Shown here: piece after piece, positions 221-10,867 of the stretch | Numbering within the stretch: position 1 is the first letter of the stretch | Layout: every line of letters begins with the position of its first letter | Assembly: GCA_964244895.1 (NCBI GenBank) | Contig: CAXTKV010000061.1 | Span: 1 to 10,867 of the forward strand | Reading direction: 5' to 3' | Length of the DNA: 10,867 nucleotides | Source: an uncultured Deinococcales bacterium | GTDB taxonomy: Bacteria > Deinococcota > Deinococci > Deinococcales > JAAFIG01 | The notes under the pieces: model-generated | What the model saw: the letters and a program-made list of their open reading frames with translations, nothing else | Told to the model about the DNA's origin: nothing | Databases searched by the model: none | Translations under genes and position numbers: made by a program

Positions 221-250
221 AACACGCGAAAATGATGCTCGAGAATAGAG

Positions 251-296
251 AACACCGTCCAGCACGCATTCTCGAGATCGTGTGTGGGACGGTGTT
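251..296. repeat. 46-bp palindromic dispersed repeat, copy 1
   Basis: AACACCGTCCAGCACGCATTCTCGAGATCGTGTGTGGGACGGTGTT, with 10-bp perfect terminal arms AACACCGTCC/GGACGGTGTT and CTCGAG in the centre. It lies between two convergent genes. Confidence 0.9.
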
Positions 297-322
297 AATT
301 TAGTTGATCGAAGAAGCGATAC

Positions 323-640
323 TCAAAGAGAGTTCACTTGAAGCATCGAAAGAAGTTCACCAGTCTTGTTTACAAACCACGCTCGAGGACTATCGGGGTC
401 GTTTCCTTCAGAAACGAGCAAGTCGTAGAGTTCTGAAACGAAGGTAGTAATTAATTTTGTATCTTCTTGAGAAAGAAGATACAAGTCTAAATTACCGTAA
501 TGGATTGCATTGGTTAAGGTATCTGCCAAGTCGGAATCTGGTTTGATGTGATCAATTACATATTCCATGACGGCGCTAAACATACTATTGCTTGTTACCC
601 AGACTATATCTGGATCTTCAACGATTGTAAGTGTTGCCAC
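323..640 (-). CDS. Hypothetical acidic 105-aa protein with low GC (about 40%)
   Basis: GTG start preceded by a GAGGT Shine-Dalgarno. A 318-bp open frame in AT-rich DNA is unlikely by chance. No family recognised. Confidence 0.7.
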   Translation of the reverse strand: MATLTIVEDPDIVWVTSNSMFSAVMEYVIDHIKPDSDLADTLTNAIHYGNLDLYLLSQEDTKLITTFVSELYDLLVSEGNDPDSPRAWFVNKTGELLSMLQVNSL

Positions 641-736
641 GTTAGTTACCTCAATAGGTCAACGCTGCAAATGATAGCTTGGAATGCGGAGGCGATATCG
701 GTAACTCAGGCTTCAAGTCGTTGAAATTATCACCTT

Positions 737-2572
737 CTATGACAACCAATCTTCTGCGGATTTCGCTTCCCCTTCTAAATCCTTCACGCTCGAGACTTCA
801 TCTTTGCGCGTGGCCCACGCAGGGAATGGGAAGGTGATCATCACGGGGCTGGGAACCTCGGGTTGCTGCACGATCATCGTACCGGGTTGAAGGATGCCAG
901 CGCGCAAACGGAACGCGCCGGGAAGGAAACGGTACTCGGGGCGTTCGGCTTCGGCAGGGTCCAGGCGTCCGACCACGCGAATGCTCGCGTTGGCCACGAT
1001 GCGGCGCTCGACTTCGGACGCGGTTTGTTGCGCTCCAATCAAAATAATGCCCAGGCTGCGCCCGCGTTCCGCGATGTCCAGCAGCACGTCCTTGATCGGG
1101 CTTTCGCCCTCGCGTGGGGCGTACTTGTTCAACTCGTCCAGCACGACGAACATTTTGCCTCGAGACCCAGATTTTTCCCTGGCCTCAAAGACCTGCTTCA
1201 AAACCACGCCGACCACGAACATCTGCGCGTAACAGTTCAGGCTGTGAATGTCCACGACCGTCAACTGGTTGCGCATCGGGTCGGGTCGGTGCTTGTCGGC
1301 GGTGCTTTCGTCCACGTCGCCGCGCACGAGCGGGTTGAGATGCTTGACCACGCCGCGCAATCGCCGGATGAAGGCTTGCCGCGTGCCCAGGGGTTGCCGT
1401 CCGACCCATTTCGGGTCGCCGTCCTCGCCCTGGTCGATCAGCTTGTATTCGATGTAGGCCACGAGCTGCGTGAAGGTCTGGATGCGCGCCTTGCCGAGTT
1501 GCGTGAACTCGATGCCGGGGTCGATCTCGCGGGCTTCCTCGGGGCTCCAGTCGTCCACCAATAAAAACGGCGCGCTCGAGCCATCGTTGGTCGCCAGCCG
1601 CGCGAGTTTTTCTTCGATCTGCCCGATCAGGAAGCCCAGGTTGAGGCTCGAGTCCCGATCAGAGAAGCAGTAGGGGAGAAGCCTTCCCTTGGCGAATTCT
1701 CGCAGCGTCCACAGGTACGGCGTGATACCCGTCTGCCGTTGCGTGATGCCGTGCGTGATGGTTCTGGAACCCGAATCGTCCATCGCGGGCGGCGCGAGAA
1801 ATTGCACGTCCTGGAAAGGCGTCTTGGGTAAGCCGCAGGCCGTGTACCGATCGGACTTGATGCCGCGCGCCTTCGAGATCGCGCCCTCGCGTTCCTCAAA
1901 TTTGCTGTTAGGTTGATCCAGAAAGAGCAAATCCTGTCCCTTGACGTTGAAGATCACCGCTTTGCTGTTCGCCCGCTCGAGCCCCAACGCATCCGAATTG
2001 AACAGGCTGTACAGCAAGAAGAGCGCGTAGCTCGTTTTGGTCGCCACGCCGGACACGCCGGAGATGTTGACGTGTGCGCCGTTCTCGCCGTTCAGGAACG
2101 CGAAGTTGAGCATGGCGGGCTCGCCGTTGCGCAGCACGCCCGCCGGAAGGGTTTCTTTCATGCGGTCGCGGTAGAGCGCCATCTCGAGATCCTTGCCGAC
2201 CGCCAGGAACACGCTGTCGCCGGGATGTGGGGGAATGAACTCTTCGGGGTCGACCCGCGTCACGATCACGTGCGCGGCGTAAGAGACGTTGACCGGAATC
2301 GTCCCCTCGAGCGCGAGCTTGGTGTCACTGTCGTATTGCACGCCCTCGTGGAGTTTACGAACGCTGTCCACCACGGCGTAAAAGCGGATGAAATGCTCGT
2401 CCTTGGGCTGGAAACGGTCGTTTTCTGGCGTGTTCGGCCTGAGCGTCTTGACGACCACCAGATCGTCGAGTTGCAGCATCATGCCGTCCTCGACGCCGAC
2501 CCAGAATTCCAGTGGTGCGCTGTCGCGCGTCCCTAAAACGATACCGACGTTGGTGGCTGGAATGGCGATCAT
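737..2572 (-). CDS. herA: HerA-family ATPase/helicase (FtsK-HerA superfamily), 611 aa
   Basis: N-terminal HAS-barrel-like segment (VGIVLGT...FWVGV...LQLDDLVVV), variant Walker A HVNISGVSGVATKTS, Walker B VVLDELNKYAP and the ERGRSLGIILIGAQQ motif. AGGAGG RBS present. Lies directly downstream of nurA. Confidence 0.92.
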   Translation of the reverse strand: MIAIPATNVGIVLGTRDSAPLEFWVGVEDGMMLQLDDLVVVKTLRPNTPENDRFQPKDEHFIRFYAVVDSVRKLHEGVQYDSDTKLALEGTIPVNVSYAAHVIVTRVDPEEFIPPHPGDSVFLAVGKDLEMALYRDRMKETLPAGVLRNGEPAMLNFAFLNGENGAHVNISGVSGVATKTSYALFLLYSLFNSDALGLERANSKAVIFNVKGQDLLFLDQPNSKFEEREGAISKARGIKSDRYTACGLPKTPFQDVQFLAPPAMDDSGSRTITHGITQRQTGITPYLWTLREFAKGRLLPYCFSDRDSSLNLGFLIGQIEEKLARLATNDGSSAPFLLVDDWSPEEAREIDPGIEFTQLGKARIQTFTQLVAYIEYKLIDQGEDGDPKWVGRQPLGTRQAFIRRLRGVVKHLNPLVRGDVDESTADKHRPDPMRNQLTVVDIHSLNCYAQMFVVGVVLKQVFEAREKSGSRGKMFVVLDELNKYAPREGESPIKDVLLDIAERGRSLGIILIGAQQTASEVERRIVANASIRVVGRLDPAEAERPEYRFLPGAFRLRAGILQPGTMIVQQPEVPSPVMITFPFPAWATRKDEVSSVKDLEGEAKSAEDWLS

Positions 2573-2693
2573 GGTTTCCTCCTGCGTGATTGCTTTCCCC
2601 CGCGAGCTGGGGGAAGTGTGGCTCGAGCCTCACGGCTGCCGTGACGGGTGATGCGTGCGGATCGAGCTTGCGACTCGAGCCTCGCGCCGCGTT

Positions 2694-3770
2694 TTAGTTG
2701 ACCTCTCGGGCGGCACCGTCCAGCACGGGATCTTTGATTTGCGTCCCAGACGGTGTTTTCGTGATTTCCGGTTGCGCGTACATGGCTTGCAGGTGCGATT
2801 GAATCCGGCGCCGGATGATGCCGGGATCGCCCATGCGCCGACCCAGTTCGGATTCCAGGAACGCGACGGGCATCAGTTGCTGCGGTGCGCGCGGGTCGCG
2901 GAAGGATTTCGCGGCGAATTTGGGCAGGTTCAGGCACGTCCAGTCCGCCACGGCCACCGCCCACTCCTGACCGCGCTCCGCGTAAACTTCCAGCCGCACC
3001 ACACCGGATAGGCCCTGGTGCCAGTCGATGGGGTTGTCGAGGCGCAAGTACCACGAGAAGCGCTCCAGCCGACCGCCGATCAAAAAGACGGGCGAACGCT
3101 GGCCTTTTTGCAGCGCGAAGAGCGTGCGTTGTTCCAGCGGTGGCAACCGGAAATCGTGCAGCGTCTTGACGTACCCGACTGAACTCGGGAAGCTCGCGTC
3201 GAGCGCCAGCGTGCCGTCCACCACCAGCAAACTGGCTCGAGCCTTCAGCCCCTGCGCGGTCTGGGCTTCGGCCTGGCGCATCAGGTTCTGAAGCTTTTGC
3301 TCCAGGGCGTTCTCGCGGTTGTCATAGTTCGGGATCGTCTGGGTGGCGTAAAAAAGATCGCCCAGTTTGCTGCCGGTCGACGGGATCATCACGCCCGGAT
3401 GTTCGATGTCGCCGCCCAGGATCAGCACGCGCCGGGGGTCGGCTTTCTCGACGTGCGCTTTGGCGTCGATCCGGGATACTTTCGCCAGTCCGACCGCGAA
3501 GGTGCCCAGCAATCCGGGCGCGGTGCGGTGGACGGATTTGGCGGTTGCGCCCTCGTCCCATTCGGCAAAGACGCGCTGTTCGATGCGGCGGCGACCGTCG
3601 ATGAAGTACAGGTGATCGAAATCGATCTGCTCGAGCCTGGTCTGGACAGGTTTCCATTCGTCCAGTTCCACGTGCAGATTGACATCCTCGAAGGGCACGG
3701 TCTCGAGGCCCGCGGCGTCGTGCAGGCTGGTGTCGTATTCTGCCGCCCACGGCTCGAGCGTCAGTTTCAC
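2694..3770 (-). CDS. nurA: NurA-family nuclease, 358 aa
   Basis: Motifs YFIDGRRR, LLVVDGTL, VGYVKT, GQRSPVF, RFSWYLRL and DPRAPQQLMPVAFLESEL are typical of bacterial NurA. Adjacent to herA. GTG start. Confidence 0.9.
   Translation of the reverse strand: MKLTLEPWAAEYDTSLHDAAGLETVPFEDVNLHVELDEWKPVQTRLEQIDFDHLYFIDGRRRIEQRVFAEWDEGATAKSVHRTAPGLLGTFAVGLAKVSRIDAKAHVEKADPRRVLILGGDIEHPGVMIPSTGSKLGDLFYATQTIPNYDNRENALEQKLQNLMRQAEAQTAQGLKARASLLVVDGTLALDASFPSSVGYVKTLHDFRLPPLEQRTLFALQKGQRSPVFLIGGRLERFSWYLRLDNPIDWHQGLSGVVRLEVYAERGQEWAVAVADWTCLNLPKFAAKSFRDPRAPQQLMPVAFLESELGRRMGDPGIIRRRIQSHLQAMYAQPEITKTPSGTQIKDPVLDGAAREVN
2712..2757. repeat. 46-bp palindromic repeat, copy 2, inside the nurA 3' end
   Basis: GGCACCGTCCAGCACGGGATCTTTGATTTGCGTCCCAGACGGTGTT. 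Same length as copies 1 and 3, and shares CACCGTCCAGCACG and GACGGTGTT with them. Confidence 0.85.
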
Positions 3771-3806
3771 GCCTGTACCGGTGGCTTGTCGCTCTGGTCG
3801 CCGCTT

Positions 3807-3823
3807 TTACGTTCCATCCGTAA
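3807..3823. promoter_or_regulatory. RDRM-like 17-bp palindrome (putative DdrO operator) upstream of nurA-herA
   Basis: TTACG-TTCCATC-CGTAA has perfect 5-bp arms and a 7-bp spacer, the architecture of the Deinococcus radiation/desiccation response motif. It starts 5 bp downstream of the predicted -10 box. Confidence 0.7.
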
Positions 3824-3827
3824 CGAA

Positions 3828-3856
3828 ACTCTATCGGCGCGCGGCGCTCGAGTCAA
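3828..3856 (-). promoter_or_regulatory. Sigma70-type promoter for nurA-herA
   Basis: On the minus strand, TTGACT (3856-3851), a 17-bp spacer, then TAGAGT (3833-3828). Confidence 0.7.
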
Positions 3857-3869
3857 TGCGATAGCAATG

Positions 3870-3915
3870 AACACCGTCCAGCACGGTGTTCTTGTCTCGT
3901 GTGCTGGACGGTGTT
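3870..3915. repeat. 46-bp palindromic repeat, copy 3 (most perfect copy)
   Basis: AACACCGTCCAGCACGGTGTTCTTGTCTCGTGTGCTGGACGGTGTT. With one flanking base each side it forms 16-bp perfect arms (3869-3884 and 3901-3916). The left part also forms a nested palindrome, AACACCGT-CCAGC-ACGGTGTT. Confidence 0.92.
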
Positions 3916-3928
3916 CCGGGGGACAGCT

Positions 3929-4357
3929 TCACTTCACGAACTTGATCGACCACGGGTAGCGGTACTTTTCGCCTTTGCTGGCCGCGATGGTCGCCAGCAC
4001 GATGAACACGACCTGCGCGACCGCCAGCGCGCCCAGGATCGGCCCGGTCACGATGAACCCCAGACCCAGCGTGACGATGCTGGAGACGATCAGCGCGGCG
4101 CTGATGGTGAACAGGCTGAGCTGGAAGTTGATCGCTTCCTTGCCCTGATCGTCCGCGTAGGCGGATTTGTCCTTCCAGACCAGCCACGCCACCAGCGGCC
4201 CCAGCACCGCGCCCAGGGCGGGCACGACGTAGGCCGCAAGCGCCGACAGGTGAATCACCATGCCGTAGGTGCGCTCCTCGTTGGTGGTCAGGTTGACGCC
4301 GCGTTCCTGTTCGATGCTGCTCGAGCCAAGGTTGCCGGTCAGTTCAGAGTCGTTCAT
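3929..4357 (-). CDS. DUF4870-like (Tic20-like) membrane protein, 142 aa
   Basis: EERTYGMVIHLS...LGPLVAWLVWKDKS...QGKEAINFQLS...AASKGEKYRYP is the typical pattern of this family, with three hydrophobic segments. The start is placed at ATG 4357 because the ORF-track extension to 4564 crosses a hairpin-rich intergenic region. Confidence 0.85.
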   Translation of the reverse strand: MNDSELTGNLGSSSIEQERGVNLTTNEERTYGMVIHLSALAAYVVPALGAVLGPLVAWLVWKDKSAYADDQGKEAINFQLSLFTISAALIVSSIVTLGLGFIVTGPILGALAVAQVVFIVLATIAASKGEKYRYPWSIKFVK

Positions 4358-4512
4358 GGTTTTCAATACGTCAGGTCTGGTCGCGGGGTTCCGAGAATTT
4401 CGAGTCGATCGGTTGCGCCAATCTGAATGGGCCGACCTCAATCGAAGGTCGAGTCGGTGCGACGCGGAACCTCTTTGCTCGAGAAATCCAGCGCCAGATG
4501 CTCGAAGCGAAA

Positions 4513-4541
4513 ACGGGCTTCTCGAAGCTCGAGAAGCCCGT
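4513..4541 (-). terminator. Putative intrinsic terminator after ppa-hsp20
   Basis: 13-bp perfect stem ACGGGCTTCTCGA/TCGAGAAGCCCGT with a 3-nt loop, followed on the minus strand by a short T run. About 27 nt after the hsp20 stop. Confidence 0.65.
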
Positions 4542-4567
4542 GCCGAAGCTCGCGCCTCGCGCATACG

Positions 4568-4975
4568 TCAATCCGCTTCAGTCTCGAGATTGCCCGCCTC
4601 GACCGTGATCGTGCGGTTCAACTTCGAGAACCGCACTTCGAGCTGCCCAGCGCGGTACTGCGCGACCGCTGATCCCGGTTCGACGGGTTCTGGGACGCGC
4701 AGGGTGCGCTGGAACGTGCCCTGTGGTCGTTCCGCCACGAGCGCGTGACCGTATTGCTGGACTTCTCGGGTTCCGACGACCGTGATGTCGTCGCCGTCGT
4801 GCGCGATCTCGAGGCTGGATGCGTCCACGCCGGGCGCGTCGAGGATCAGGATCAGGTCATCGTCGGTTTCAAACCAGTCGGCGGCGGGCGTCCAGGCGCT
4901 CGGGCCTTTGAGCTTCTCGATCCGTTCGCGCACGCCCGCGAGTTCAGTCAAGGGTTTCCAGGTCTGGAGGTCCAT
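4568..4975 (-). CDS. Hsp20/alpha-crystallin small heat-shock protein, 135 aa
   Basis: WTPAADWFET...LDAPGV...ERPQGTFQRTLRVPEPV...AQYRAGQLEVRF. ATG 4975 lies 8 nt after the ppa stop; the ORF-track start at 5011 would overlap ppa. Confidence 0.9.
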   Translation of the reverse strand: MDLQTWKPLTELAGVRERIEKLKGPSAWTPAADWFETDDDLILILDAPGVDASSLEIAHDGDDITVVGTREVQQYGHALVAERPQGTFQRTLRVPEPVEPGSAVAQYRAGQLEVRFSKLNRTITVEAGNLETEAD

Positions 4976-4983
4976 GACGGATC

Positions 4984-5502
4984 TTACTTCGCCGCGGCGC
5001 GTTCGACGCACCGGACGATTTCGGCGTAGGCCGCCTGCCGATCGCGCCAGCCGAGCGTCTCGACGAGCTTGTTTTCCAAGGTTTTGTACTCCAGGAAAAA
5101 GTGTTCGATCTCCGCCAATCGGTGCGACTGAATATCCTCGAGCTCCACGCGATCGTCCCAGCGCGGGTCGCGGGCGGGCACGGCCAGAATCTTCTCGTCC
5201 TCGCCCTTGTCGTCGCGCATGACCAGCATCCCGACGGGGCGCGCCTCGACCAGCACGCCGACCTGGAACGGGTGGGTTGACAGAATGATCACGTCCAAGG
5301 GGTCGCCGTCGCCGCCCAGGGTGCTGGGCATGAAGCCGTAATCGCCGGGGTAGCTCATGCTGGCGTAGAGCACGCGATCCAGTTTGATCACGCCCAGATC
5401 CTTGTCGTATTCGTATTTGTTGGACGTGTTGCGCGGCACTTCGATCACGACGTTGATGATTTCTGGGGACTTGGGGCCGCTGGGCAAATCGTAAAGTTTC
5501 AT
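4984..5502 (-). CDS. ppa: Family I inorganic pyrophosphatase, 172 aa
   Basis: VIEVP, KYEYDK, LDRVLY, YPGDYGF, DGDPLD, DDKGEDEKILAV and IEHFFLEYKTLE. GGAG RBS present. Confidence 0.97.
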   Translation of the reverse strand: MKLYDLPSGPKSPEIINVVIEVPRNTSNKYEYDKDLGVIKLDRVLYASMSYPGDYGFMPSTLGGDGDPLDVIILSTHPFQVGVLVEARPVGMLVMRDDKGEDEKILAVPARDPRWDDRVELEDIQSHRLAEIEHFFLEYKTLENKLVETLGWRDRQAAYAEIVRCVERAAAK

Positions 5503-5557
5503 GCGTCAGTCTCCAATGGGAACGTGAGGCTCGAGCGTGTTCTTCTCGAGCTTCAAG

Positions 5558-5578
5558 AGTGTATCAGGCGTGTACAAT
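5558..5578. promoter_or_regulatory. Back-to-back -10 elements for ppa and miaA
   Basis: Minus strand TG-A-TACACT (extended -10, hexamer 5563-5558) faces ppa. Plus strand TACAAT (5573-5578) lies 7 nt before the in-frame GTG of miaA. Confidence 0.6.
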
Positions 5579-5585
5579 TCCGCCC

Positions 5586-6539
5586 GTGACGCCCCAGTCC
5601 ACAGCCCCGAAGATTCCCATTCTGGCCGGGCCGACCGCCAGCGGCAAGACGGCGCTTTCATTGGAACTCGCCGCGACTTTTCCGCTCGAGATCATCTCGG
5701 CGGACGCGATGATGGTCTACCGGGGCATGGATGTCGGCACGGCCAAACCGACGCTGGCGGAACGCGCGCTCGCGCCGCACCACCTGATCGATCTGGTCGA
5801 GCCGAGCACGGATTTCAGCGTGGCAGAGTGGGTCACGCGCGCCGAGGAAACCATCCAGGACGTGATTTCGCGCGGTCGAATTCCGTTCGTGGTCGGTGGC
5901 ACGGGTTTCTACATCCGCGCCCTCAAGCACGGTTTGCCGACCGCGCCGCCGTCCGATCGGGAGGCCATCGCACGGCTCGAGGCGGAATTGCACGCGCAAG
6001 GTCTGGACGCGATGGTCGCGGAGCTCGAGGATTCGAGTCCCGAGGACGCGGCCCGCGCCGCGCGCAACCCGCGCCGCGTCCTGCGCGCCCTCGAGATTCT
6101 GCGCGGCAGCGGCAGAGCGCCCAAGGATCACCCGAATCGGACGCCCAGATTCGCGTACCGGACGGTCTTGCTGATGCCCGAAAAGACCGTTCTGGACGCC
6201 AGAATAGAGGCTCGAACCCGAAAGATGTTGCAGGACGGGCTGATCGAGGAAGCTCGAGGTCTGATGTCGAGTTTCGTGCGCGATGGTCGGCGCGCGACCA
6301 GCTTTCAGGCCATCGGCTACAAGCAGGCGCTCGACTTTCTGACGGGCGTGTACTTGGAAGACGGCACGCGCCGGGACGTGTCGCTCGAGGAAGTGGAACG
6401 GCGCATCACCCTGGCCACGCGCCAGTACGCCAAGCGCCAGGCGACCTGGTTCAGGCGCGAATCGGACGCGATCACCGTGGAATCGTCCGATGCAGCCCGT
6501 ACTGAACTCGAGCGGATTCTTCGAACCTGGATGCGCTGA
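5586..6539 (+). CDS. miaA: tRNA (adenosine(37)-N6)-dimethylallyltransferase, 317 aa
   Basis: LAGPTASGKT, ISADAMMVYRGMDVGTAKP, PHHLID, VGGTGFY, QAIGYK and TRQYAKRQATWFR. Start moved to GTG 5586 (TACAAT-N7-GTG, inferred leaderless). Confidence 0.97.
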   Translation: MTPQSTAPKIPILAGPTASGKTALSLELAATFPLEIISADAMMVYRGMDVGTAKPTLAERALAPHHLIDLVEPSTDFSVAEWVTRAEETIQDVISRGRIPFVVGGTGFYIRALKHGLPTAPPSDREAIARLEAELHAQGLDAMVAELEDSSPEDAARAARNPRRVLRALEILRGSGRAPKDHPNRTPRFAYRTVLLMPEKTVLDARIEARTRKMLQDGLIEEARGLMSSFVRDGRRATSFQAIGYKQALDFLTGVYLEDGTRRDVSLEEVERRITLATRQYAKRQATWFRRESDAITVESSDAARTELERILRTWMR

Positions 6540-6571
6540 GGGCGCAGATCGCGCCCTCGGGAAGCCCTAGG

Positions 6572-6596
6572 AATACCGTCCAGAACGGTGTTTTTT
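6572..6596 (+). repeat. Half copy (21-bp self-palindrome) of the repeat family with a T tract; probable miaA terminator
   Basis: AATACCGT-CCAGA-ACGGTGTT-TTTT is 19/21 identical to the left 21 bp of copy 3. It lies between the convergent miaA and cyclase genes. Confidence 0.75.
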
Positions 6597-6656
6597 GGTC
6601 GTTCAAAAGAGGTCGAAAAACATGTTCCAAGAGGCCGATATGCGCCCGAAACGCCT

Positions 6657-7091
6657 TCAGTCGGTCCCACCGGGCATGGACGGGATCGCGCCAATTTGGG
6701 CGAATAAAGCGTAAAAGTCCACCTCCGGCCAGTGCTCGACGATCTTGCCCTGATCGAAACGGTAAATGTGGATCTCGGTGAACTTGACGGTTCGGTTGGT
6801 GGCCGGAATGCCGAGCAATTCGTTGGTGTGCGTTCCGGTCGCGGTCGTGCGCTCGATGACTCTGTCGCCATCGGCCAGAAGATCCTCGAGGTTGACGGTC
6901 ACGTCCGGCATCGCGCCGATGACGGCGCTGCCGACGGAGCGAAAGCCCCGCAGGTCGGGTGTCACGCCCGGAAGCCTGAAGTGCGTGATGAAATCCTGGC
7001 TGAAGAGTTCATCGATGACGCGGTGATCGTGTTCGTTCTTGTATTCCTGGACGAAGCGGCGGATGGTGGCCTTGTTTTCTTCGATGCCCAT
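6657..7091 (-). CDS. SnoaL-like ester cyclase (NTF2 fold), 144 aa
   Basis: ENKATIRRF...IDELFSQDF...AMPD...LEDLLADGDRV...GTHTNELLGIPATNRTV...IYRFDQGKIVEHW. AGGAGG RBS present. Confidence 0.92.
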   Translation of the reverse strand: MGIEENKATIRRFVQEYKNEHDHRVIDELFSQDFITHFRLPGVTPDLRGFRSVGSAVIGAMPDVTVNLEDLLADGDRVIERTTATGTHTNELLGIPATNRTVKFTEIHIYRFDQGKIVEHWPEVDFYALFAQIGAIPSMPGGTD

Positions 7092-7102
7092 GGTGCCCTC
7101 CT

Positions 7103-7125
7103 GAGGCTCGAGTGGCTCGAGCCTC
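7103..7125. other. Perfect hairpin built from two CTCGAG sites in the cyclase 5' leader
   Basis: GAGGCTCGAG-TGG-CTCGAGCCTC forms a 10-bp stem immediately upstream of the AGGAGG RBS on the minus strand. Confidence 0.7.
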
Positions 7126-7133
7126 CAGAAGAA

Positions 7134-7172
7134 TGTACCGATTGGTTTGTTATTTCTGTACCTTTTGGTACA
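7134..7172. promoter_or_regulatory. Two tandem putative TetR operators upstream of the cyclase gene
   Basis: TGTACC-TTTT-GGTACA (7157-7172, perfect arms) and TGTACC-GATT-GGTTTG (7134-7149). The second overlaps a minus-strand -10-like TACATT (7137-7132). Confidence 0.7.
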
Positions 7173-7173
7173 C

Positions 7174-7782
7174 TTATGTGGCGTGGGCCTTCAGCGCGAC
7201 CATCGCGCCCTCGAGCGCCAACCGGAGCGGCGCCTCGTGCTTGAGGGTCTTCGAGAGCAGCATTCCACCTTCCAGACTGGCCAACACCATCGTCGCCAAC
7301 GCCTGAACATCGGCCTCGGGGCTGAGTGCGCCGCGCACCTGAAGGTTTCTCAGGCCGTGCGCGATGTGCTCGATCCAGCGCCGAAAAAACGCGTCCAGTT
7401 CCAGACGCAACGGCTCCTCCCGGTCGGCCACCTCGGCGGCCATCGTGCCGAACGGACATCCGCCGACGAAACCCTGAAGGCGCTGATCCTCGAGCGCGAA
7501 GGCGAACCAGGCTTCCACGTCCTCCCAGGTCTCGAGCCCCTCCAGCATCGGCGCGAGCCGTTCCTCGAACGCATTGGCCCGATAAGCCAGCACCTGCCGA
7601 ATCATGTCGTCCTTGTTCTGAAAGTAATGGTAGATCTGGCTTTTTCCCGTGTTGGACGCCTCGATCACGTCGTTCAGACTGGTCGCGGCCACGCTGCGCA
7701 GGTGAACCAGTTCTGCGGCGGTCGAGAGGATGGTTTCTCTGGTTCGCTCCCCTTTGGGTGTCGTCGGTCTCGCGGATGCCAT
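7174..7782 (-). CDS. TetR/AcrR-family transcriptional regulator (NemR/LmrA-like), 202 aa
   Basis: TRETILSTAAEL...TSLNDVIEASNTGKSQIYHYFQNKDD helix-turn-helix and a GGCPFG motif. Start placed at ATG 7782 (TATCAT-N6-ATG). Confidence 0.93.
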   Translation of the reverse strand: MASARPTTPKGERTRETILSTAAELVHLRSVAATSLNDVIEASNTGKSQIYHYFQNKDDMIRQVLAYRANAFEERLAPMLEGLETWEDVEAWFAFALEDQRLQGFVGGCPFGTMAAEVADREEPLRLELDAFFRRWIEHIAHGLRNLQVRGALSPEADVQALATMVLASLEGGMLLSKTLKHEAPLRLALEGAMVALKAHAT

Positions 7783-7788
7783 GCCAAA

Positions 7789-7806
7789 ATGATACCTTTC
7801 GGTACA
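7789..7806 (-). promoter_or_regulatory. tetR -10 box overlapped by a putative autoregulatory operator
   Basis: Minus strand TGTACC-GAAA-GGTATC (7806-7791) matches the 7157-7172 palindrome and overlaps TATCAT (7794-7789). Confidence 0.7.
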
Positions 7807-7843
7807 AAGACCCACGGCTCATTGATGGCGTCCAAGTTGTCAA

Positions 7844-7899
7844 AAGACCGTCCTGCACACGGATTCTCGAACCTCAGATCTTGCGTCCTGGACGGTGTT
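7844..7899. repeat. Palindromic repeat family, 56-bp long variant
   Basis: AAGACCGTCCTGCACACGGATTCTCGAACCTCAGATCTTGCGTCCTGGACGGTGTT has the family arms and the internal ATTCTCGA and TTGCGTC segments. It lies between divergent genes. Confidence 0.8.
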
Positions 7900-7955
7900 A
7901 TTCAATTCTGCCCGAACCGATGAACCGTTTTCGCGTTTCGTGCGTATGCTCAAGT

Positions 7956-9416
7956 ATGAGTGAGATACCGCTCGACCGTCCGCGCACCACCAACCGGAGC
8001 CTTCTCGTGCAGGTCTGGCCCGCGTTGCTGGTCGGCTTCATCTCGAGCGTCGGCGTCAGCCTGGTCGGGATCGTGCTGAGATTGCTGGCCAACGTGCCTT
8101 TCCCCGCCGAAAAGCTCTACAACATCGTTACCTACTGGCTGGGCACGCCCGCGATGTTCCAGCTCGTCCACAGGCTGCTGGGTTTCGGGCAGGGCGGCAA
8201 GGTCGCGGCCTTCGGCGGCGTGCTGCTCGCCTGGCTGGGCGGGCTGACGCTCTTGGGTCTGGCCTCGCCGGTGATCGCCAGCGCCATCGTGCTGGTCGCA
8301 TCGTTCGTTCTGCTGTTGTCGGTCGGCCCGGTTTGGGCGATCCTGCACGCCGCTGGTTACTTCGGGATTCGCTACGCGCTCCAACCGATCCGCGATCAGG
8401 AAGGCAAGCGCGGCACGTTGAACACGCTCGGCTGGGGTTCACTGGCGGTCTTCGGTGCGGGCGCGTTCGGCATCGTCAGGCCGCTCTTCGAGAATGCCCC
8501 GAAAGTGTCCCCGACGGATGTTGCCAAGGGCAACCTGCCGCCCGGCATCACCAGCGTGGACGATTTCTATTACGTCTCGATCAACAACGAAGCGCTCGAT
8601 CCGAAGGTCAACGGCGCGAACTGGAACCTCGAGATCGCGGGCTTGGTCAAGAACCCGCAATCCATCAAGCTGGACGCGTTGCGCTCGGATTTCGCGCCCA
8701 AAGACCTCGAGTTCACGTTCTCCTGCATCTCGAACCCGGTCGGCGGCGAATTGATCGGCAACGCCATCTGGCGCGGCGTGTCCTTCAAGGATCTGGTCAA
8801 CAAGGTCGGCGTCCAGCCCGGCGCGAAATGGGTGATCATCGAGGCCGCCGACGGCTTCTACGAATCCTTACCGCTGGCCGACATGCTCGAGGACGACGTG
8901 ATGCTGGCCTACGACATGAACGGCAAACCGTTGAACAACAAGCACGGCTTCCCGCTGCGCACGATCATTCCGGGTCGCTACGGCATGAAGCAACCGCGCT
9001 GGATCACCAAGATCACCTTTTCCGCCGACGAAAAACCCGGTTACTGGGCCAACCGGGGCTGGTCACGCACGGCCTACGTCATGACCATGAGCCGCATCGA
9101 TTTCCCCTCGGACGGCAAGTCCTTCAAGGCGGGCGAAGCCCTCAACCTGCGCGGTGTGGCCTTCGGCGGTTTGAAACCGATCACCAAAGTCGAGGTCAGC
9201 ACCGATGACGGTCAGACCTGGGCTGAGACCAAACTGACCGCGCCGCGCTCCAAGCACGCCTGGACGCTCTGGCAGTTGCCGTGGACGGCCCAATCGGGAC
9301 GCCACACGCTGATCGTCCGCGCCTATGCCAACGGGGTGTTGCAGAACTCTGAGGAACGCGATTCCCTGCCCGAAGCCGCGAGCGGATTGCACAAGCTTTT
9401 CATCGACGTGGCCTAA
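7956..9416 (+). CDS. Membrane-anchored molybdopterin-dependent oxidoreductase, sulfite oxidase family, 486 aa
   Basis: About five N-terminal hydrophobic segments, then FYYVS, WNLEIAGLV, FSCISNPVGGELIGNAIW (Mo-ligand Cys), MNGKPL..KHGFPLR, PGRYGMKQPRW and the C-terminal dimerisation domain VEVSTDDGQTW...WTLW. Start ATG 7956 (TATGCT-N5-ATG). Confidence 0.92.
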   Translation: MSEIPLDRPRTTNRSLLVQVWPALLVGFISSVGVSLVGIVLRLLANVPFPAEKLYNIVTYWLGTPAMFQLVHRLLGFGQGGKVAAFGGVLLAWLGGLTLLGLASPVIASAIVLVASFVLLLSVGPVWAILHAAGYFGIRYALQPIRDQEGKRGTLNTLGWGSLAVFGAGAFGIVRPLFENAPKVSPTDVAKGNLPPGITSVDDFYYVSINNEALDPKVNGANWNLEIAGLVKNPQSIKLDALRSDFAPKDLEFTFSCISNPVGGELIGNAIWRGVSFKDLVNKVGVQPGAKWVIIEAADGFYESLPLADMLEDDVMLAYDMNGKPLNNKHGFPLRTIIPGRYGMKQPRWITKITFSADEKPGYWANRGWSRTAYVMTMSRIDFPSDGKSFKAGEALNLRGVAFGGLKPITKVEVSTDDGQTWAETKLTAPRSKHAWTLWQLPWTAQSGRHTLIVRAYANGVLQNSEERDSLPEAASGLHKLFIDVA

Positions 9417-9423
9417 ACGAAGA

Positions 9424-9444
9424 GTTGATACAGCTCAACTCAAG
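9424..9444 (-). promoter_or_regulatory. Distal HAIR-like (HspR operator) site
   Basis: The minus strand reads CTTGAGT-TGAGCTG-TATCAAC; canonical HAIR is CTTGAGT-N7-ACTCAAG. One arm is perfect. Confidence 0.5.
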
Positions 9445-9447
9445 CTT

Positions 9448-9478
9448 TCTCGAGAAGATCGATCCGATCTTCTCGAGA
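9448..9478. terminator. Perfect 14-bp hairpin downstream of the oxidoreductase; possible terminator or 3' stabiliser
   Basis: TCTCGAGAAGATCG-ATC-CGATCTTCTCGAGA followed by TTGATTT. Both arms contain CTCGAG. Confidence 0.55.
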
Positions 9479-9587
9479 TTGATTTGATGGGCTGGATCGC
9501 CGCCCATTTTCGAGCGCAGTTCGACTTGCAGATTCGTTTTGAGGACGCAAAGAACCTGAAACTCGATGCAATCTGGCGCTTCACTGA

Positions 9588-9614
9588 CTCGAGAAATGCT
9601 TTCCAGACGGTGTT
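9588..9614 (-). repeat. Half copy of the palindromic repeat family
   Basis: Minus strand AACACCGTCTGGAAAGCATTTCTCGAG aligns to the left half of copy 1 (AACACCGTCCAGCACGCATT-CTCGAG). Similarity ends at the CTCGAG. Confidence 0.65.
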
Positions 9615-9661
9615 CCCGGCTTGGGGCGCGACGGGCGAGCCTCGAAACGTGACCGAAGAGA

Positions 9662-9691
9662 TTGCTTGAGTGCATTGATATCAGGTACAAT
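9662..9691 (+). promoter_or_regulatory. hspR promoter with an overlapping HAIR-like operator
   Basis: TTGCTT (9662-9667), an 18-bp spacer, TACAAT (9686-9691), then 7 nt to ATG. CTTGAGT-GCATTGA-TATCAGG at 9665-9685 covers the spacer. Confidence 0.75.
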
Positions 9692-9698
9692 CTTCACA

Positions 9699-10400
9699 AT
9701 GACCAGGGATACCCGCGACCGACCCGTTTACGTGATCTCCGTTGCGGCGGAACTGGTGGACATGCACCCGCAAACTTTGCGGCTCTACGAGCGCAAAGGC
9801 CTGATTCGTCCTGGTCGCTCGAGCGGCAAGACGCGCCTGTACAGTGAGCGCGACATCGACCACCTCAAGGAAATTCGGCGTCTGACCCAGGAACTGGGCG
9901 TCAACCTGGCGGGCGTCGAGGAAGTCATGAAGTTGCGCTTCGAACTCGACCAGATCGAGGCGCAACTCGAGGCCGATATCACGCGGATCGAGGGCGAGAT
10001 CAAGGGCAAACTCGAGAACCGCGCCCTGCCCGCTTCAGGCGCTCCGAACGACCCGAAAGACCGACCCGTCTACGTGATCTCCGTGGCCGCCGAACTGGTC
10101 GAGATGCACCCCCAAACGCTGCGGCTCTACGAGCGCAAGGGTTTGATCCGTCCGGGACGCTCGAGCGGCAAGACGCGGCTCTATTCGGAACGCGACGTGG
10201 ATCACCTGCGGGAAATCCGGCGTCTGACCCAGGAACTGGGTGTCAACCTGGCGGGCGTCGAGGAGATCATGCGTTTGCGCTACGAACTGGACGGCGCTCA
10301 GGATCGCCTGGAGGGCGAGATCTCGCGGATTCAGGGCGAGTTGACGGATCGCATAGAGGCCTGGAAAGCCCTGCCCGCGCCGTCGGGCGACGACGACTGA
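9699..10400 (+). CDS. hspR: Heat-shock repressor HspR (MerR family), fused tandem-domain type, 233 aa
   Basis: Two copies of [44 protein letters not shown]...[12 protein letters not shown], the HspR signature. The tandem form is known from Deinococcus. Start ATG 9699. Confidence 0.95.
9717..10292 (+). repeat. Intragenic direct duplication in hspR, 342-bp period
   Basis: Units begin GACCGACCCGT at 9717 and 10059. The first 78 aa differ at only 6 conservative positions, with many synonymous changes. Confidence 0.95.
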
Positions 10401-10461
10401 CGCGATCGTCCTCTGGAGAATTGCGACCTTCGGATTCGTACCGTTCGATCATGCTCTCGAG

Positions 10462-10507
10462 AACTCCGTCCCAGACGCAAATTCAAGAATGCGTGCAGGA
10501 TGGTGCT
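10462..10507 (-). repeat. 46-bp palindromic repeat, diverged copy in reverse orientation
   Basis: The reverse complement AGCACCATCCTGCACGCATTCTTGAATTTGCGTCTGGGACGGAGTT shares GCACGCATTCT with copy 1 and ATTTGCGTC with copy 2. Same length as both. Confidence 0.8.
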
Positions 10508-10625
10508 CCCGAGAAATACGCAGGAAACCGTTTGGCTCGCTCGAGTATTATCGAATATTCGCGTTCCGTGAATACCGTGCTCGATGCGCTTTTCGTCCGG
10601 TTCGGGATGCTGGCTCTGCTCGGGC

Positions 10626-10867
10626 ATGACGCCAAAAACCGATTCGGAACGCGCGGCTGACGTTCGGCTCACCCCGCAATGGCTGACGGATCGCCTCGAG
10701 CAGATCGATCTGAATACCGAACTCAGTGAGACGCCGCGGCACCCGTCGTGTACGCCGAATGTCTCGCGGCTGGCCCGGATGCGACTATAGCGCTGAATGA
10801 CGCTGACTATCATCTTCGTGGTGGCAGGCCCGTTGTTGTGGACGCCTCGAGCGAGGCTGTGCGGGCC
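10626..10867 (+). pseudogene. Possible frameshifted hypothetical gene running off the window edge
   Basis: ATG 10626 gives MTPKTDSERAADVRLTPQWLTDRLEQIDLNTELSE. A -1 shift at 10730 continues DAAAPVVYAECLAAGPDATIALNDADYHLRGGRPVVVDASSEAVRA, open to the edge. No family recognised. Confidence 0.3.

What the first reader, a model, noticed from the sequence alone, without database searches (positions are those of the whole stretch)
238..10851. CTCGAG is a highly iterated palindrome (about 5 per kb), a candidate HIP1-like system outside cyanobacteria
Seen: 53 CTCGAG sites by manual count against about 3-4 expected at roughly 62% GC, around 15-fold excess. Leu-Glu codon-pair usage cannot be the whole explanation. 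About 18 sites fall in the roughly 1.9 kb outside confidently called genes, about twice the coding density. Within genes the hexamer occurs in all three frames: CTC-GAG; TCG-AGC as Ser-Ser (789, 4320, 8042, 9818, 10160); and xCT-CGA-G, using the CGA Arg codon (1159, 3236, 6253). Established: cyanobacterial HIP1 (GCGATCGC) shows this frame-independent pattern and has been linked to DNA methyltransferases; restriction sites such as XhoI (CTCGAG) are normally depleted, not enriched. Inference: a methylase-coupled repair or mutation process, or a chromosome-organising protein, creates or maintains the sites. I cannot tell whether this has already been reported for this lineage.
Basis: partly seen in the sequence, partly recalled or inferred. 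Interest (0 to 1): 0.85.

Follow-up and report, generated by a model that had tools for sequence, protein, structure and literature searches.

The report
CTCGAG palindrome, candidate AddAB Chi site
This uncultured relative of Deinococcus carries the six-letter palindrome CTCGAG about every 230 bases, even at the cost of changing its proteins, and across the phylum the excess goes with one DNA-break-processing enzyme (AddAB), which suggests the word is that enzyme's stop signal and offers a testable cause for this kind of unexplained repeat.

Summary
Confirmed: 53 sites in the window (shuffles 5.4) and 21,883 in the genome (4.3/kb). They occur in all three frames, at 3.6, 13 and 7 times a protein-preserving shuffle, and between genes. 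All 19 family genomes carry 4.3-6.8/kb. The scan noted this word before on other genomes (13 notes seen), cause open.

The methylase idea is not supported: no shared DNA methyltransferase, no XhoI nuclease.

New here: the excess tracks one AddB orthologue. Of 70 genomes without it, 68 have at most 0.46/kb; of 74 with it, 71 have at least 0.63/kb. The motif-rich G253 has it; its motif-free sister G197 does not. Two of the three AddB-positive exceptions rank first and second of 251 genomes for a related word, CCAGAG.

Best reading (0.45): a palindromic Chi-type site of AddAB, spread by biased repair or recombination. Against: Thermus-like genomes have AddB without excess, G008 lacks it, CCAGAG is unpolarised, only about three independent losses, no biochemistry.

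The parts
238..10851 (.). 53 CTCGAG palindromes, 4.9 per kb
   Evidence: list, shuffle null; frames
737..2572 (-). 611-aa HerA-like ATPase gene (label from recalled motifs; no Pfam or NCBIfam hit) with 7 sites in all three frames: 789, 1575, 1647 (frame 2), 1159 (frame 1), 1976, 2183, 2306 (Leu-Glu)
2694..3770 (-). 358-aa NurA-like gene (label recalled; no family hit) with sites 3236 (GCT-CGA-G), 3630, 3702, 3753
5559..6539 (+). miaA with 7 sites (six Leu-Glu; 6253 uses the CGA Arg codon)
9699..10400 (+). fused-dimer hspR; Ser-Ser sites 9818 and 10160 at the same place in both halves, Leu-Glu sites 9966 and 10011
238..296 (.). REP-like 46-bp hairpin (251-296) with CTCGAG in its flank (238) and in its loop (271)
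2712..2757 (.). REP-like hairpin; site 2674 lies within 40 bases
3847..3915 (.). site 3847 and REP-like hairpin 3870-3915
10456..10545 (.). degenerate REP-like hairpin starting with CTCGAG (10456), and site 10540

Best explanation
CTCGAG is the recognition (Chi-type) site of the Deinococcota AddAB helicase-nuclease, and it accumulates through biased repair and recombination. Shown: the word is held at DNA level (losses suppressed, gains raised); G000 encodes AddAB outside the window (addB at C128:11522-14110, addA split over the ends of C128 and C123); the excess co-occurs with this AddB orthologue. Established for other bacteria: AddAB degrades a DNA end until it meets Chi, then leaves a 3' tail for RecA. 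Inferred: on a broken chromosome copy or incoming DNA, an allele with the word stops degradation and is kept, while an allele without it is chewed through and replaced from the template. A palindrome does this from both sides, and polyploidy or frequent DNA exchange supplies the unlike templates. That acts like strong selection for the word, needs no methylation, and can swap alleles that differ by several bases. Ordinary selection for shorter resection may add to it.
For: (1) Distribution, 144 genomes tested (densities). Without the AddB orthologue: 68 of 70 at 0.46/kb or less, including 60 of 60 genomes of genus g7. With it: 71 of 74 at 0.63/kb or more, including 18 of 19 family genomes. (2) Sister contrast: G253 (7.0/kb) has addB; G197 (same genus, 95% complete, 5 contigs, 0.3/kb, no strongly enriched word in 80 kb) does not. 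G192, the only f2 genome without it among 29 tested, has 0.29/kb. (3) A test run after the hypothesis was framed: AddB-positive but CTCGAG-poor G195 has CCAGAG and CCCGAG as top hexamers. CCAGAG is 4.5/kb in G195 and 1.6/kb in G243, ranks 1 and 2 of 251, with the next at about 1.3/kb. In G195 it occurs in all frames on both strands, with Pro-Glu 1.83 against Glu-Pro 0.58. (4) In the g4 alignment, loss to CCCGAG is the only well-sampled loss class that is not suppressed (17 vs 17.2 expected; 3 vs 5.4 in the g5 trio). CCCGAG is the most enriched one-mismatch word in G000, G003, G004 and G006 (2.4-3.1x). (5) The protein's best structural relative by sequence is B. subtilis AddB (3u44_B, profile E 1.6e-10). 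The Chi-pocket scaffold of PMC4614115 is kept (P40 and Q42 invariant, aromatic at W73, aromatic or Leu at F210, acid at E217) while T44 and R70 differ; four C-terminal Cys are invariant. (6) Polarised events in coding DNA: one-base losses 90 vs 222 expected; gains 6 vs 1.6 (one base), 3 vs 0.8 (two), 5 vs 0.36 (three). (7) Sites are more evenly spread than all 75 control words at 0.5-2 kb. (8) T. thermophilus AddAB destroys most incoming DNA, and addAB was not identified in Deinococcus (PMC9751324, PMC11143384, passages).
Against: AddB is not sufficient. Five of six AddB-positive g9 (Thermus-like) genomes have CTCGAG at 0.67-1.15 times the reversed word (sixth 1.8). G205 has AddB and 0.29/kb. 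CCCGAG did not mark these genomes either (1.0-1.6 times control in g9). G008 has 5.2/kb but no addB in two searches (94% complete; gap or recent loss not resolved). Known Chi sites are asymmetric and mostly strand-polarised; CCAGAG in G195 is not (89 vs 70 in 40 kb) and CCCGAG in G000 is not (rank 340 of 1207). Pocket residues do not co-vary cleanly with the word: G253 resembles G195/G243 more than the family. The contrast rests on about three independent losses, two in small genomes (2.3 and 2.1 Mb) that have probably lost many genes, so a co-lost gene could be the cause. A second, divergent AddAB-like protein (25-27% to AddB) gave weak hits in 10 of 50 g7 genomes; it was read in 4 loci (G079, G069, G195, G196), so 'no AddAB at all' is not true of those. 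addA is not within about 4 kb of addB in G253, G195, G196 or G012 and was not sought elsewhere in them. One site per 150-230 bases is far denser than E. coli Chi (one per 5 kb, PMC8022716). Gain counts are small, and stepwise intermediates occur.
Confidence: 0.45

Rival explanations
1. Another, unidentified DNA-binding protein (uptake receptor, nucleoid or segregation protein) reads CTCGAG and was lost in the same lineages as addB; the sites are kept by ordinary selection.
For: Loss suppression and even spacing fit selection equally well. The losses of addB are few and partly in small genomes. Thermus-like genomes and G008 break the AddB match. G000 has DprA, and family genomes avoid most other palindromes almost completely, which suggests heavy DNA exchange. 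HIP1 raises transformation (bioRxiv 2024.09.10.611283, abstract).
Against: No candidate was found. The switch to CCAGAG in AddB-positive g34 was looked for because of the AddAB idea. No short-range period was seen up to 300 bases.
Confidence: 0.27
2. An orphan methyltransferase marks CTCGAG or TCGA, and methyl-directed mismatch or very-short-patch repair creates the sites (Elhai's model for HIP1).
For: MutS, MutL and NucS are present in G000. A beta-class methyltransferase is conserved in 9 Meiothermus-like f5 loci. CTCGAG is a known methylated motif in other taxa (PMC8112702, 10.64898/2026.06.24.734251, passages). G000 is only 91% complete.
Against: G000 has no C5 enzyme; single-contig G006 has no PF01555 enzyme. 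Eco57I-, N6- and D12-class hits are in type I, IIG, BREX or paired restriction loci and are not shared. XhoI nuclease 0 of 19. No transition precursor is depleted. NucS does not track. The asymmetric CCAGAG would need a different enzyme.
Confidence: 0.1
3. A mutational process writes the word directly as a multi-base event, for example templated patching of breaks.
For: Three-base gains are 14-fold over expectation against 3.8-fold for one-base gains. 22 of 52 discordant sites between G008 and G017 differ by two or more bases against 22% in background (Fisher p 0.001). AT-rich restriction loci already carry several sites per kb.
Against: Only five events. Stepwise paths are seen in rpoC. Flank divergence around multi-base sites equals that of matched controls. 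Losses are suppressed, which writing alone does not explain.
Confidence: 0.1
4. Codon and dipeptide usage (CTC-GAG, Leu-Glu) or the REP-like repeat explains the excess.
For: 73% of coding sites are CTC-GAG. High-GC genomes of other phyla reach 1-3/kb, but only 1.7-fold over a second-order model. 2,145 of 5,867 intergenic sites lie near REP arms.
Against: The excess is larger in the other two frames and between genes. Leu-Glu is 2.12-fold while Glu-Leu is 0.99. Relatives at 45-53% GC reach 57- to 85-fold over a masked model and lack the REP.
Confidence: 0.02

Closest known systems
HIP1 (GCGATCGC) and alternate HIPs of cyanobacteria (Elhai 2015 PMC4390886; Xu et al. 2018 PMC5861425; passages read)
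   Same: One short palindrome far above all others, in all frames and between genes, dispersed, conserved beyond codon need, in a genome that avoids other palindromes.
   Different: Six bases, another phylum, 4,300-6,800 per Mb against 300-2,700 for HIP1. No conserved cognate methyltransferase found. A non-palindromic variant (CCAGAG/CCCGAG) replaces it in one lineage.
Chi sites of AddAB/RecBCD (B. subtilis AddAB, PDB 3u44/4cej, PMC4614115; Caulobacter PMC5443536; proteobacterial survey PMC8022716; passages read)
   Same: Short over-represented word in genomes that encode the enzyme; AddB keeps the Chi-scanning helices by alignment; lineage-specific change of the word.
   Different: Palindromic, unpolarised, more than 20 times denser than E. 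coli Chi, strong enough to change amino acids. No activity shown.
DNA uptake sequences of Neisseria and Pasteurellaceae (recalled; PMC1939737 seen in a search listing only)
   Same: Thousands of copies that alter protein sequences, explained by biased uptake and recombination.
   Different: Those are 9-10-base asymmetric words read by uptake proteins; this is a 6-base palindrome with no flanking preference (7-mers at 0.9-1.06 of expectation).
XhoI/PaeR7I-type restriction-modification sites
   Same: Same recognition sequence (enzyme specificity recalled).
   Different: Restriction sites are avoided, as GGCC (0.01) and dozens of hexamers are here; no XhoI-family nuclease in 19 family genomes.

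Membership tests
Highly iterated palindromes (HIP class) | A short palindrome is the most over-represented word genome-wide | tested here: met
   Top hexamer by count and by O/E (12.8 order 0, 9.8 order 2, 3.4 order 3)
Highly iterated palindromes (HIP class) | Excess in all reading frames and in non-coding DNA | tested here: met
   3.6, 13.3 and 6.9 over synonymous shuffle; intergenic 6.6/kb, 5.7 away from REPs
Highly iterated palindromes (HIP class) | Conserved between genomes beyond codon constraint | tested here: met
   Synonymous losses 11 vs 47.8 and 58 vs 165 expected
HIP1 proper | Sequence GCGATCGC in a cyanobacterium | tested here: not met
   The word is CTCGAG; CGATCG is under-represented; nearest named relatives are Deinococcales MAGs
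HIP1 proper | Conserved orphan methyltransferase for the internal site | tested here: not met
   No shared enzyme in PF00145, PF01555, PF07669, PF02086 or PF02384 searches; other families not searched; G000 is 91% complete
HIP1 proper | Quasi-periodic spacing | tested here: inconclusive
   No clear period in pair distances up to 300 bases; mild evenness; kilobase periods not tested on this 328-contig assembly
HIP1 proper | Sites are methylated in vivo | not testable with these tools
   No run was listed for the window
Chi site of AddAB | Host encodes AddA and AddB | tested here: met
   G000 addB (ADDB_N E 8.7e-11; 3u44_B profile E 1.6e-10) followed by addA, split over C128/C123. For G253, G195, G196, G012 only addB was located
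Chi site of AddAB | Word over-represented where the enzyme is present and not where it is lost | tested here: inconclusive
   68 of 70 orthologue-negative genomes poor; 71 of 74 positive at 0.63/kb or more; but G008, G205 and Thermus-like genomes are exceptions and kin are not independent
Chi site of AddAB | Intact Chi-scanning pocket in AddB | tested here: inconclusive
   Scaffold residues kept and base-reading residues changed, by sequence alignment only; no structural model was obtained
Chi site of AddAB | Polarised with replication direction | tested here: not met
   Cannot apply to a palindrome; asymmetric variants unpolarised in G000 contigs and in 40 kb of G195
Chi site of AddAB | Attenuates the nuclease and promotes RecA loading | not testable with these tools
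   Needs biochemistry or genetics
Type II restriction site (XhoI type) | Cognate nuclease present and site avoided | tested here: not met
   PF04555 in 0 of 19 family genomes; site enriched

The most novel reading that the evidence does not exclude
CTCGAG is a palindromic, unpolarised Chi site of Deinococcota AddAB that drives itself through the genome by biased break repair and transformation, reaching one site per 150-230 bases and rewriting proteins. The word changes (CCAGAG/CCCGAG) in one AddAB lineage and decays when this enzyme is lost. Highly iterated palindromes, perhaps including cyanobacterial HIP1, would then be by-products of end-resection signals rather than of methylation.
Probability: 0.4. 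Interest if true: 0.92.

Novelty: new variant of a known kind. Interest (0 to 1): 0.82.

Why it matters
HIP1 has lacked an agreed cause for three decades, and Xu et al. 2018 state that high HIP1 abundance had not been seen outside cyanobacteria. This is an independent, denser case, now with a named candidate enzyme, natural loss contrasts and a natural variant word. The passages read on Thermus AddAB name no Chi sequence. Cultured relatives make it testable: named Meiothermus/Calidithermus loci have CTCGAG as top hexamer (4.7-fold, order 2), and Deinobacterium chartae, Deinococcus roseus and D. cellulosilyticus encode AddA or AddB orthologues. It would also suggest a simple way to raise transformation in these bacteria.

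Tried and rejected
Methyltransferase hunt: no shared enzyme. A D12 enzyme shared by G253 and G006 (73%) sits in a two-gene restriction-like locus in G006 and had no close match among the D12 hits of G000, G002 and G004. XhoI nuclease: one hit in 31 genomes, outside the family. NucS: strong hits in motif-poor g7 genomes, none in G253 or in five g5 genomes. Vsr-like signature: transition precursors enriched, not depleted; Vsr itself was checked only by a recalled motif in G000 (none). Neighbours of mutS and mutL: no modifying enzyme among 14 proteins scanned. Short-patch recombination: flank divergence not above matched controls. REP loops as a mutation assay: uninformative. Strand polarity of variants: none. 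CCCGAG as a Thermus variant: not supported, and the control word is itself avoided in many genomes. Sequencing runs: none was listed. Metagenome scan: no strain-level relative of G000. G008's addB gap: flanks not among the 426 kb held. No structural model of AddB was obtained. Genome-scale word spectra for Thermus-like, f2 and G192 genomes were not obtained.
Full report
Observation. The window has 53 CTCGAG sites from 238 to 10851; dinucleotide shuffles give 5.4 on average, at most 10. The genome (5.12 Mb, 328 contigs, 62.7% GC) has 21,883 sites, 4.27/kb. It is the commonest hexamer, with O/E 12.8, 9.1, 9.8 and 3.4 under Markov orders 0-3; the lowest contig has 1.6/kb. The word is exactly six bases: 7-mer extensions are at 0.9-1.06 of expectation. 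Given TCGA, the C..G cell is 4.1-fold over quasi-independence.

Not codon usage. In 4,020 confident genes (my own self-trained gene caller) a within-gene synonymous shuffle gives O/E 3.6, 13.3 and 6.9 for the three frames; intergenic DNA has 6.6/kb. 59% of Leu-Glu pairs are CTC-GAG. Leu-Glu is the top dipeptide (2.12) while Glu-Leu is 0.99. 97% of 2,922 genes of 600 bases or more contain a site. A REP-like hairpin family (702, 311 and 127 elements of 46, 56 and 57 bases) lies near 2,145 of 5,867 intergenic sites, but the rest of the intergenic DNA still has 5.7/kb, and the repeat is nearly absent from the relatives sampled. Spacing is near-random (CV 0.96) with no clear period up to 300 bases. 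It is less clumped than all 75 control words at 0.5-2 kb.

Distribution. Nearest named relatives are 'Deinococcales bacterium' MAGs. All 19 family (f1) genomes have 4.3-6.8/kb; samples at 45-53% GC are 57- to 85-fold over a masked second-order model. In a 251-genome phylum sample, all 92 genomes of genus g7 have 0.27/kb or less, g9 mostly 0.6-1.1, g13-g15 1.4-3.5, f2 0.3-2.6, G196 3.6 and G253 7.0, while G253's congener G197 has 0.3. High-GC genomes of other phyla reach 1-3/kb through codon use but only 1.7-fold at order 2, against 4.7 in named Meiothermus/Calidithermus loci. Family genomes avoid most other palindromes almost entirely (GGCC 0.01).

Evolution of sites. I aligned about 40 kb of six g4 genomes (about 86% identical) and about 57 kb of G008 with G017, G016 and G012 (95, 91, 80%). 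With class-matched background rates in coding DNA, one-base losses are 90 against 222 expected, and gains are 6 against 1.6 (one base), 3 against 0.8 (two) and 5 against 0.36 (three). Synonymous losses are 0.23-0.35 of expectation, non-synonymous losses about 1. In g4, loss to CCCGAG is not suppressed (17 vs 17.2); in the g5 trio it is 3 vs 5.4. Motif-discordant sites differ by two or more bases in 22 of 52 cases against 22% in background, and the same multi-base allele recurs in different genomes. However, stepwise paths are also seen, including amino-acid-changing last steps in RpoC, and flanks are no more diverged than matched controls. Polarisation on near-star trees is imperfect and gain counts are small.

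Methylase and repair candidates fail. G000 holds a type I HsdM, a BREX PglX-like enzyme, a beta-class enzyme in an AT-rich island and a D12 enzyme beside a NotI-like nuclease, and no C5 enzyme; profiles built from fetched enzymes found no further convincing one. Single-contig G006 has no PF01555 enzyme and no orthologue of these. No XhoI nuclease in 19 of 19. Transition neighbours of the word are enriched, mostly 1.4- to 3-fold, rather than depleted (one exception, CTTGAG 0.6 in the small G006 sample). NucS does not track. Families outside the five searched were not tested.

AddAB. G000 encodes AddB (C128:11522-14110; Pfam ADDB_N E 8.7e-11) followed by AddA, whose C-terminal part is at the start of C123. 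A 21-sequence profile finds B. subtilis AddB as best solved relative (E 1.6e-10). I searched 80 genomes with the protein and 78 with the profile, 144 different genomes, chosen by me to span the density range. I counted any hit (two are fragments in incomplete G014 and G018) and hits under 1e-100 as the orthologue. Of 70 without it, 68 have 0.46/kb or less (60 of 60 g7, seven other f3 including G197, and G192); the exceptions are G069 (1.1/kb, equal to its control word) and G008 (5.2/kb, 94% complete, close sisters positive). Of 74 with it, 71 have 0.63/kb or more; the exceptions are G195, G243 and G205. I then asked whether G195 and G243 carry another word. In 49 kb of G195 the top hexamers are CCAGAG (4.2x) and CCCGAG (4.8x). 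Genome-wide, CCAGAG has 22,865 sites in G195 (control 2,571) and 9,548 in G243 (control 3,729), first and second of 251 per kb. It occurs in all frames on both strands and doubles Pro-Glu. CTCGAG, CCCGAG and CCAGAG form a one-step series. G195's AddB is 77% identical to proteins of Deinococcus roseus and D. cellulosilyticus, and AddA orthologues are named from these and from Deinobacterium chartae.

Against AddAB. Five of six AddB-positive g9 genomes show no excess over the reversed word, and CCCGAG does not mark them. The variants are unpolarised. Pocket residues keep the scaffold described in PMC4614115 but do not sort by word. A second AddB-like protein, 25-27% identical, gave weak hits in 10 of 50 g7 and four other f3 genomes; in the four loci read it has the C-terminal cysteines, and in two a UvrD-type gene follows. 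addA is not beside addB in G253, G195, G196 or G012. The independent contrasts are about three, so the counts above are not a statistical test.

Mechanism. Established: AddAB degrades ends until Chi and then makes a 3' tail (PMC4614115, PMC5443536, passages); T. thermophilus is polyploid and its AddAB removes most incoming DNA, deletion raising transformation 100- to 1000-fold; addAB was not identified in Deinococcus (PMC9751324, PMC11143384, passages). Inferred: a site on the broken or incoming molecule survives, a non-site allele is overwritten, so the word spreads; a palindrome works from both ends, and two-ended breaks or transformation need no strand polarity. This fits loss suppression, raised gains at any distance, even spacing and the missing methylase. 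I give it 0.45; an unknown co-lost reader with ordinary selection 0.27; methylase-directed repair 0.10; direct multi-base writing 0.10.

Literature and novelty. Searches for CTCGAG with 'highly iterated palindrom', with Meiothermus/Deinococcus/Truepera, for over-represented palindromes and for AddAB/Chi in this phylum listed no paper that reports this excess or a Deinococcota Chi; most subscription papers are not in the library and no supplements were read, so genome-wide k-mer surveys may hold it. Read as passages: PMC4390886, PMC5861425, PMC8112702, 10.64898/2026.06.24.734251, PMC11143384, PMC9751324, PMC8022716, PMC4614115, PMC5443536. Read as abstract and outline: PMC13756078, 10.1101/2024.09.10.611283 (which already likens HIP1 to Chi). 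This scan noted the same word on other genomes in 13 notes seen, where the lines shown leave the cause open; no note joined it to AddAB. Verdict: a real HIP-class word, not HIP1 itself, that most likely works like a Chi site; membership in Chi is not shown.

Noticed in passing
window 251-296, 2712-2757, 3870-3915, 7844-7899; genome-wide: A REP-like hairpin family with about 1,140 full elements of 46, 56 or 57 bases, nearly absent from sampled relatives. CTCGAG often sits at its ends and in its loop. No Y1 transposase was found by one recalled motif.
   Followed up: partly
G195 (L654, L655, L641) and G243: A non-palindromic highly iterated word: CCAGAG at 4.5/kb plus CCCGAG at 1.7/kb in G195, frame-independent and unpolarised.
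   Followed up: yes
L238-L252 (G003), L164-L179 (G004), L397-L416 (G008): Extreme restriction-site avoidance: GGCC at 0.01 of expectation and many 6-base palindromes at zero in 300-385 kb.
   Followed up: partly
L666-L669 (G195, G196, G069, G079): A second, divergent AddB-like gene of 856-916 codons, followed by a UvrD-type gene in two loci, patchy in g7, a genus inferred to be Deinococcus, which is reported to lack addAB.
   Followed up: partly
window 737-3770: Adjacent 611-aa and 358-aa genes that look like a HerA/NurA pair by recalled motifs but hit no Pfam or NCBIfam model; relatives occur in Thermaceae, Acidobacteriota and Dehalococcoidia.
   Followed up: no
window 323-640: AT-rich 105-aa ORF with no family hit, inserted next to a REP-like hairpin.
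   Followed up: no
G264 (L551, L552): 110-kb complete viral contig with 318 CTCGAG and no GAGCTC, starting with a 15-base-period array of the word at 8-118; host unknown.
   Followed up: no
L039, L040, L042, L045, L047, L048, L050, L052, L054: A roughly 300-aa beta-class DNA methyltransferase conserved across nine f5 g13-g15 genomes; target unknown.
   Followed up: no
L022 1-2000 (G000:C122): LexA-like gene and Y-family polymerase-like ORF (labels from recalled motifs) next to the type I restriction locus.
   Followed up: no
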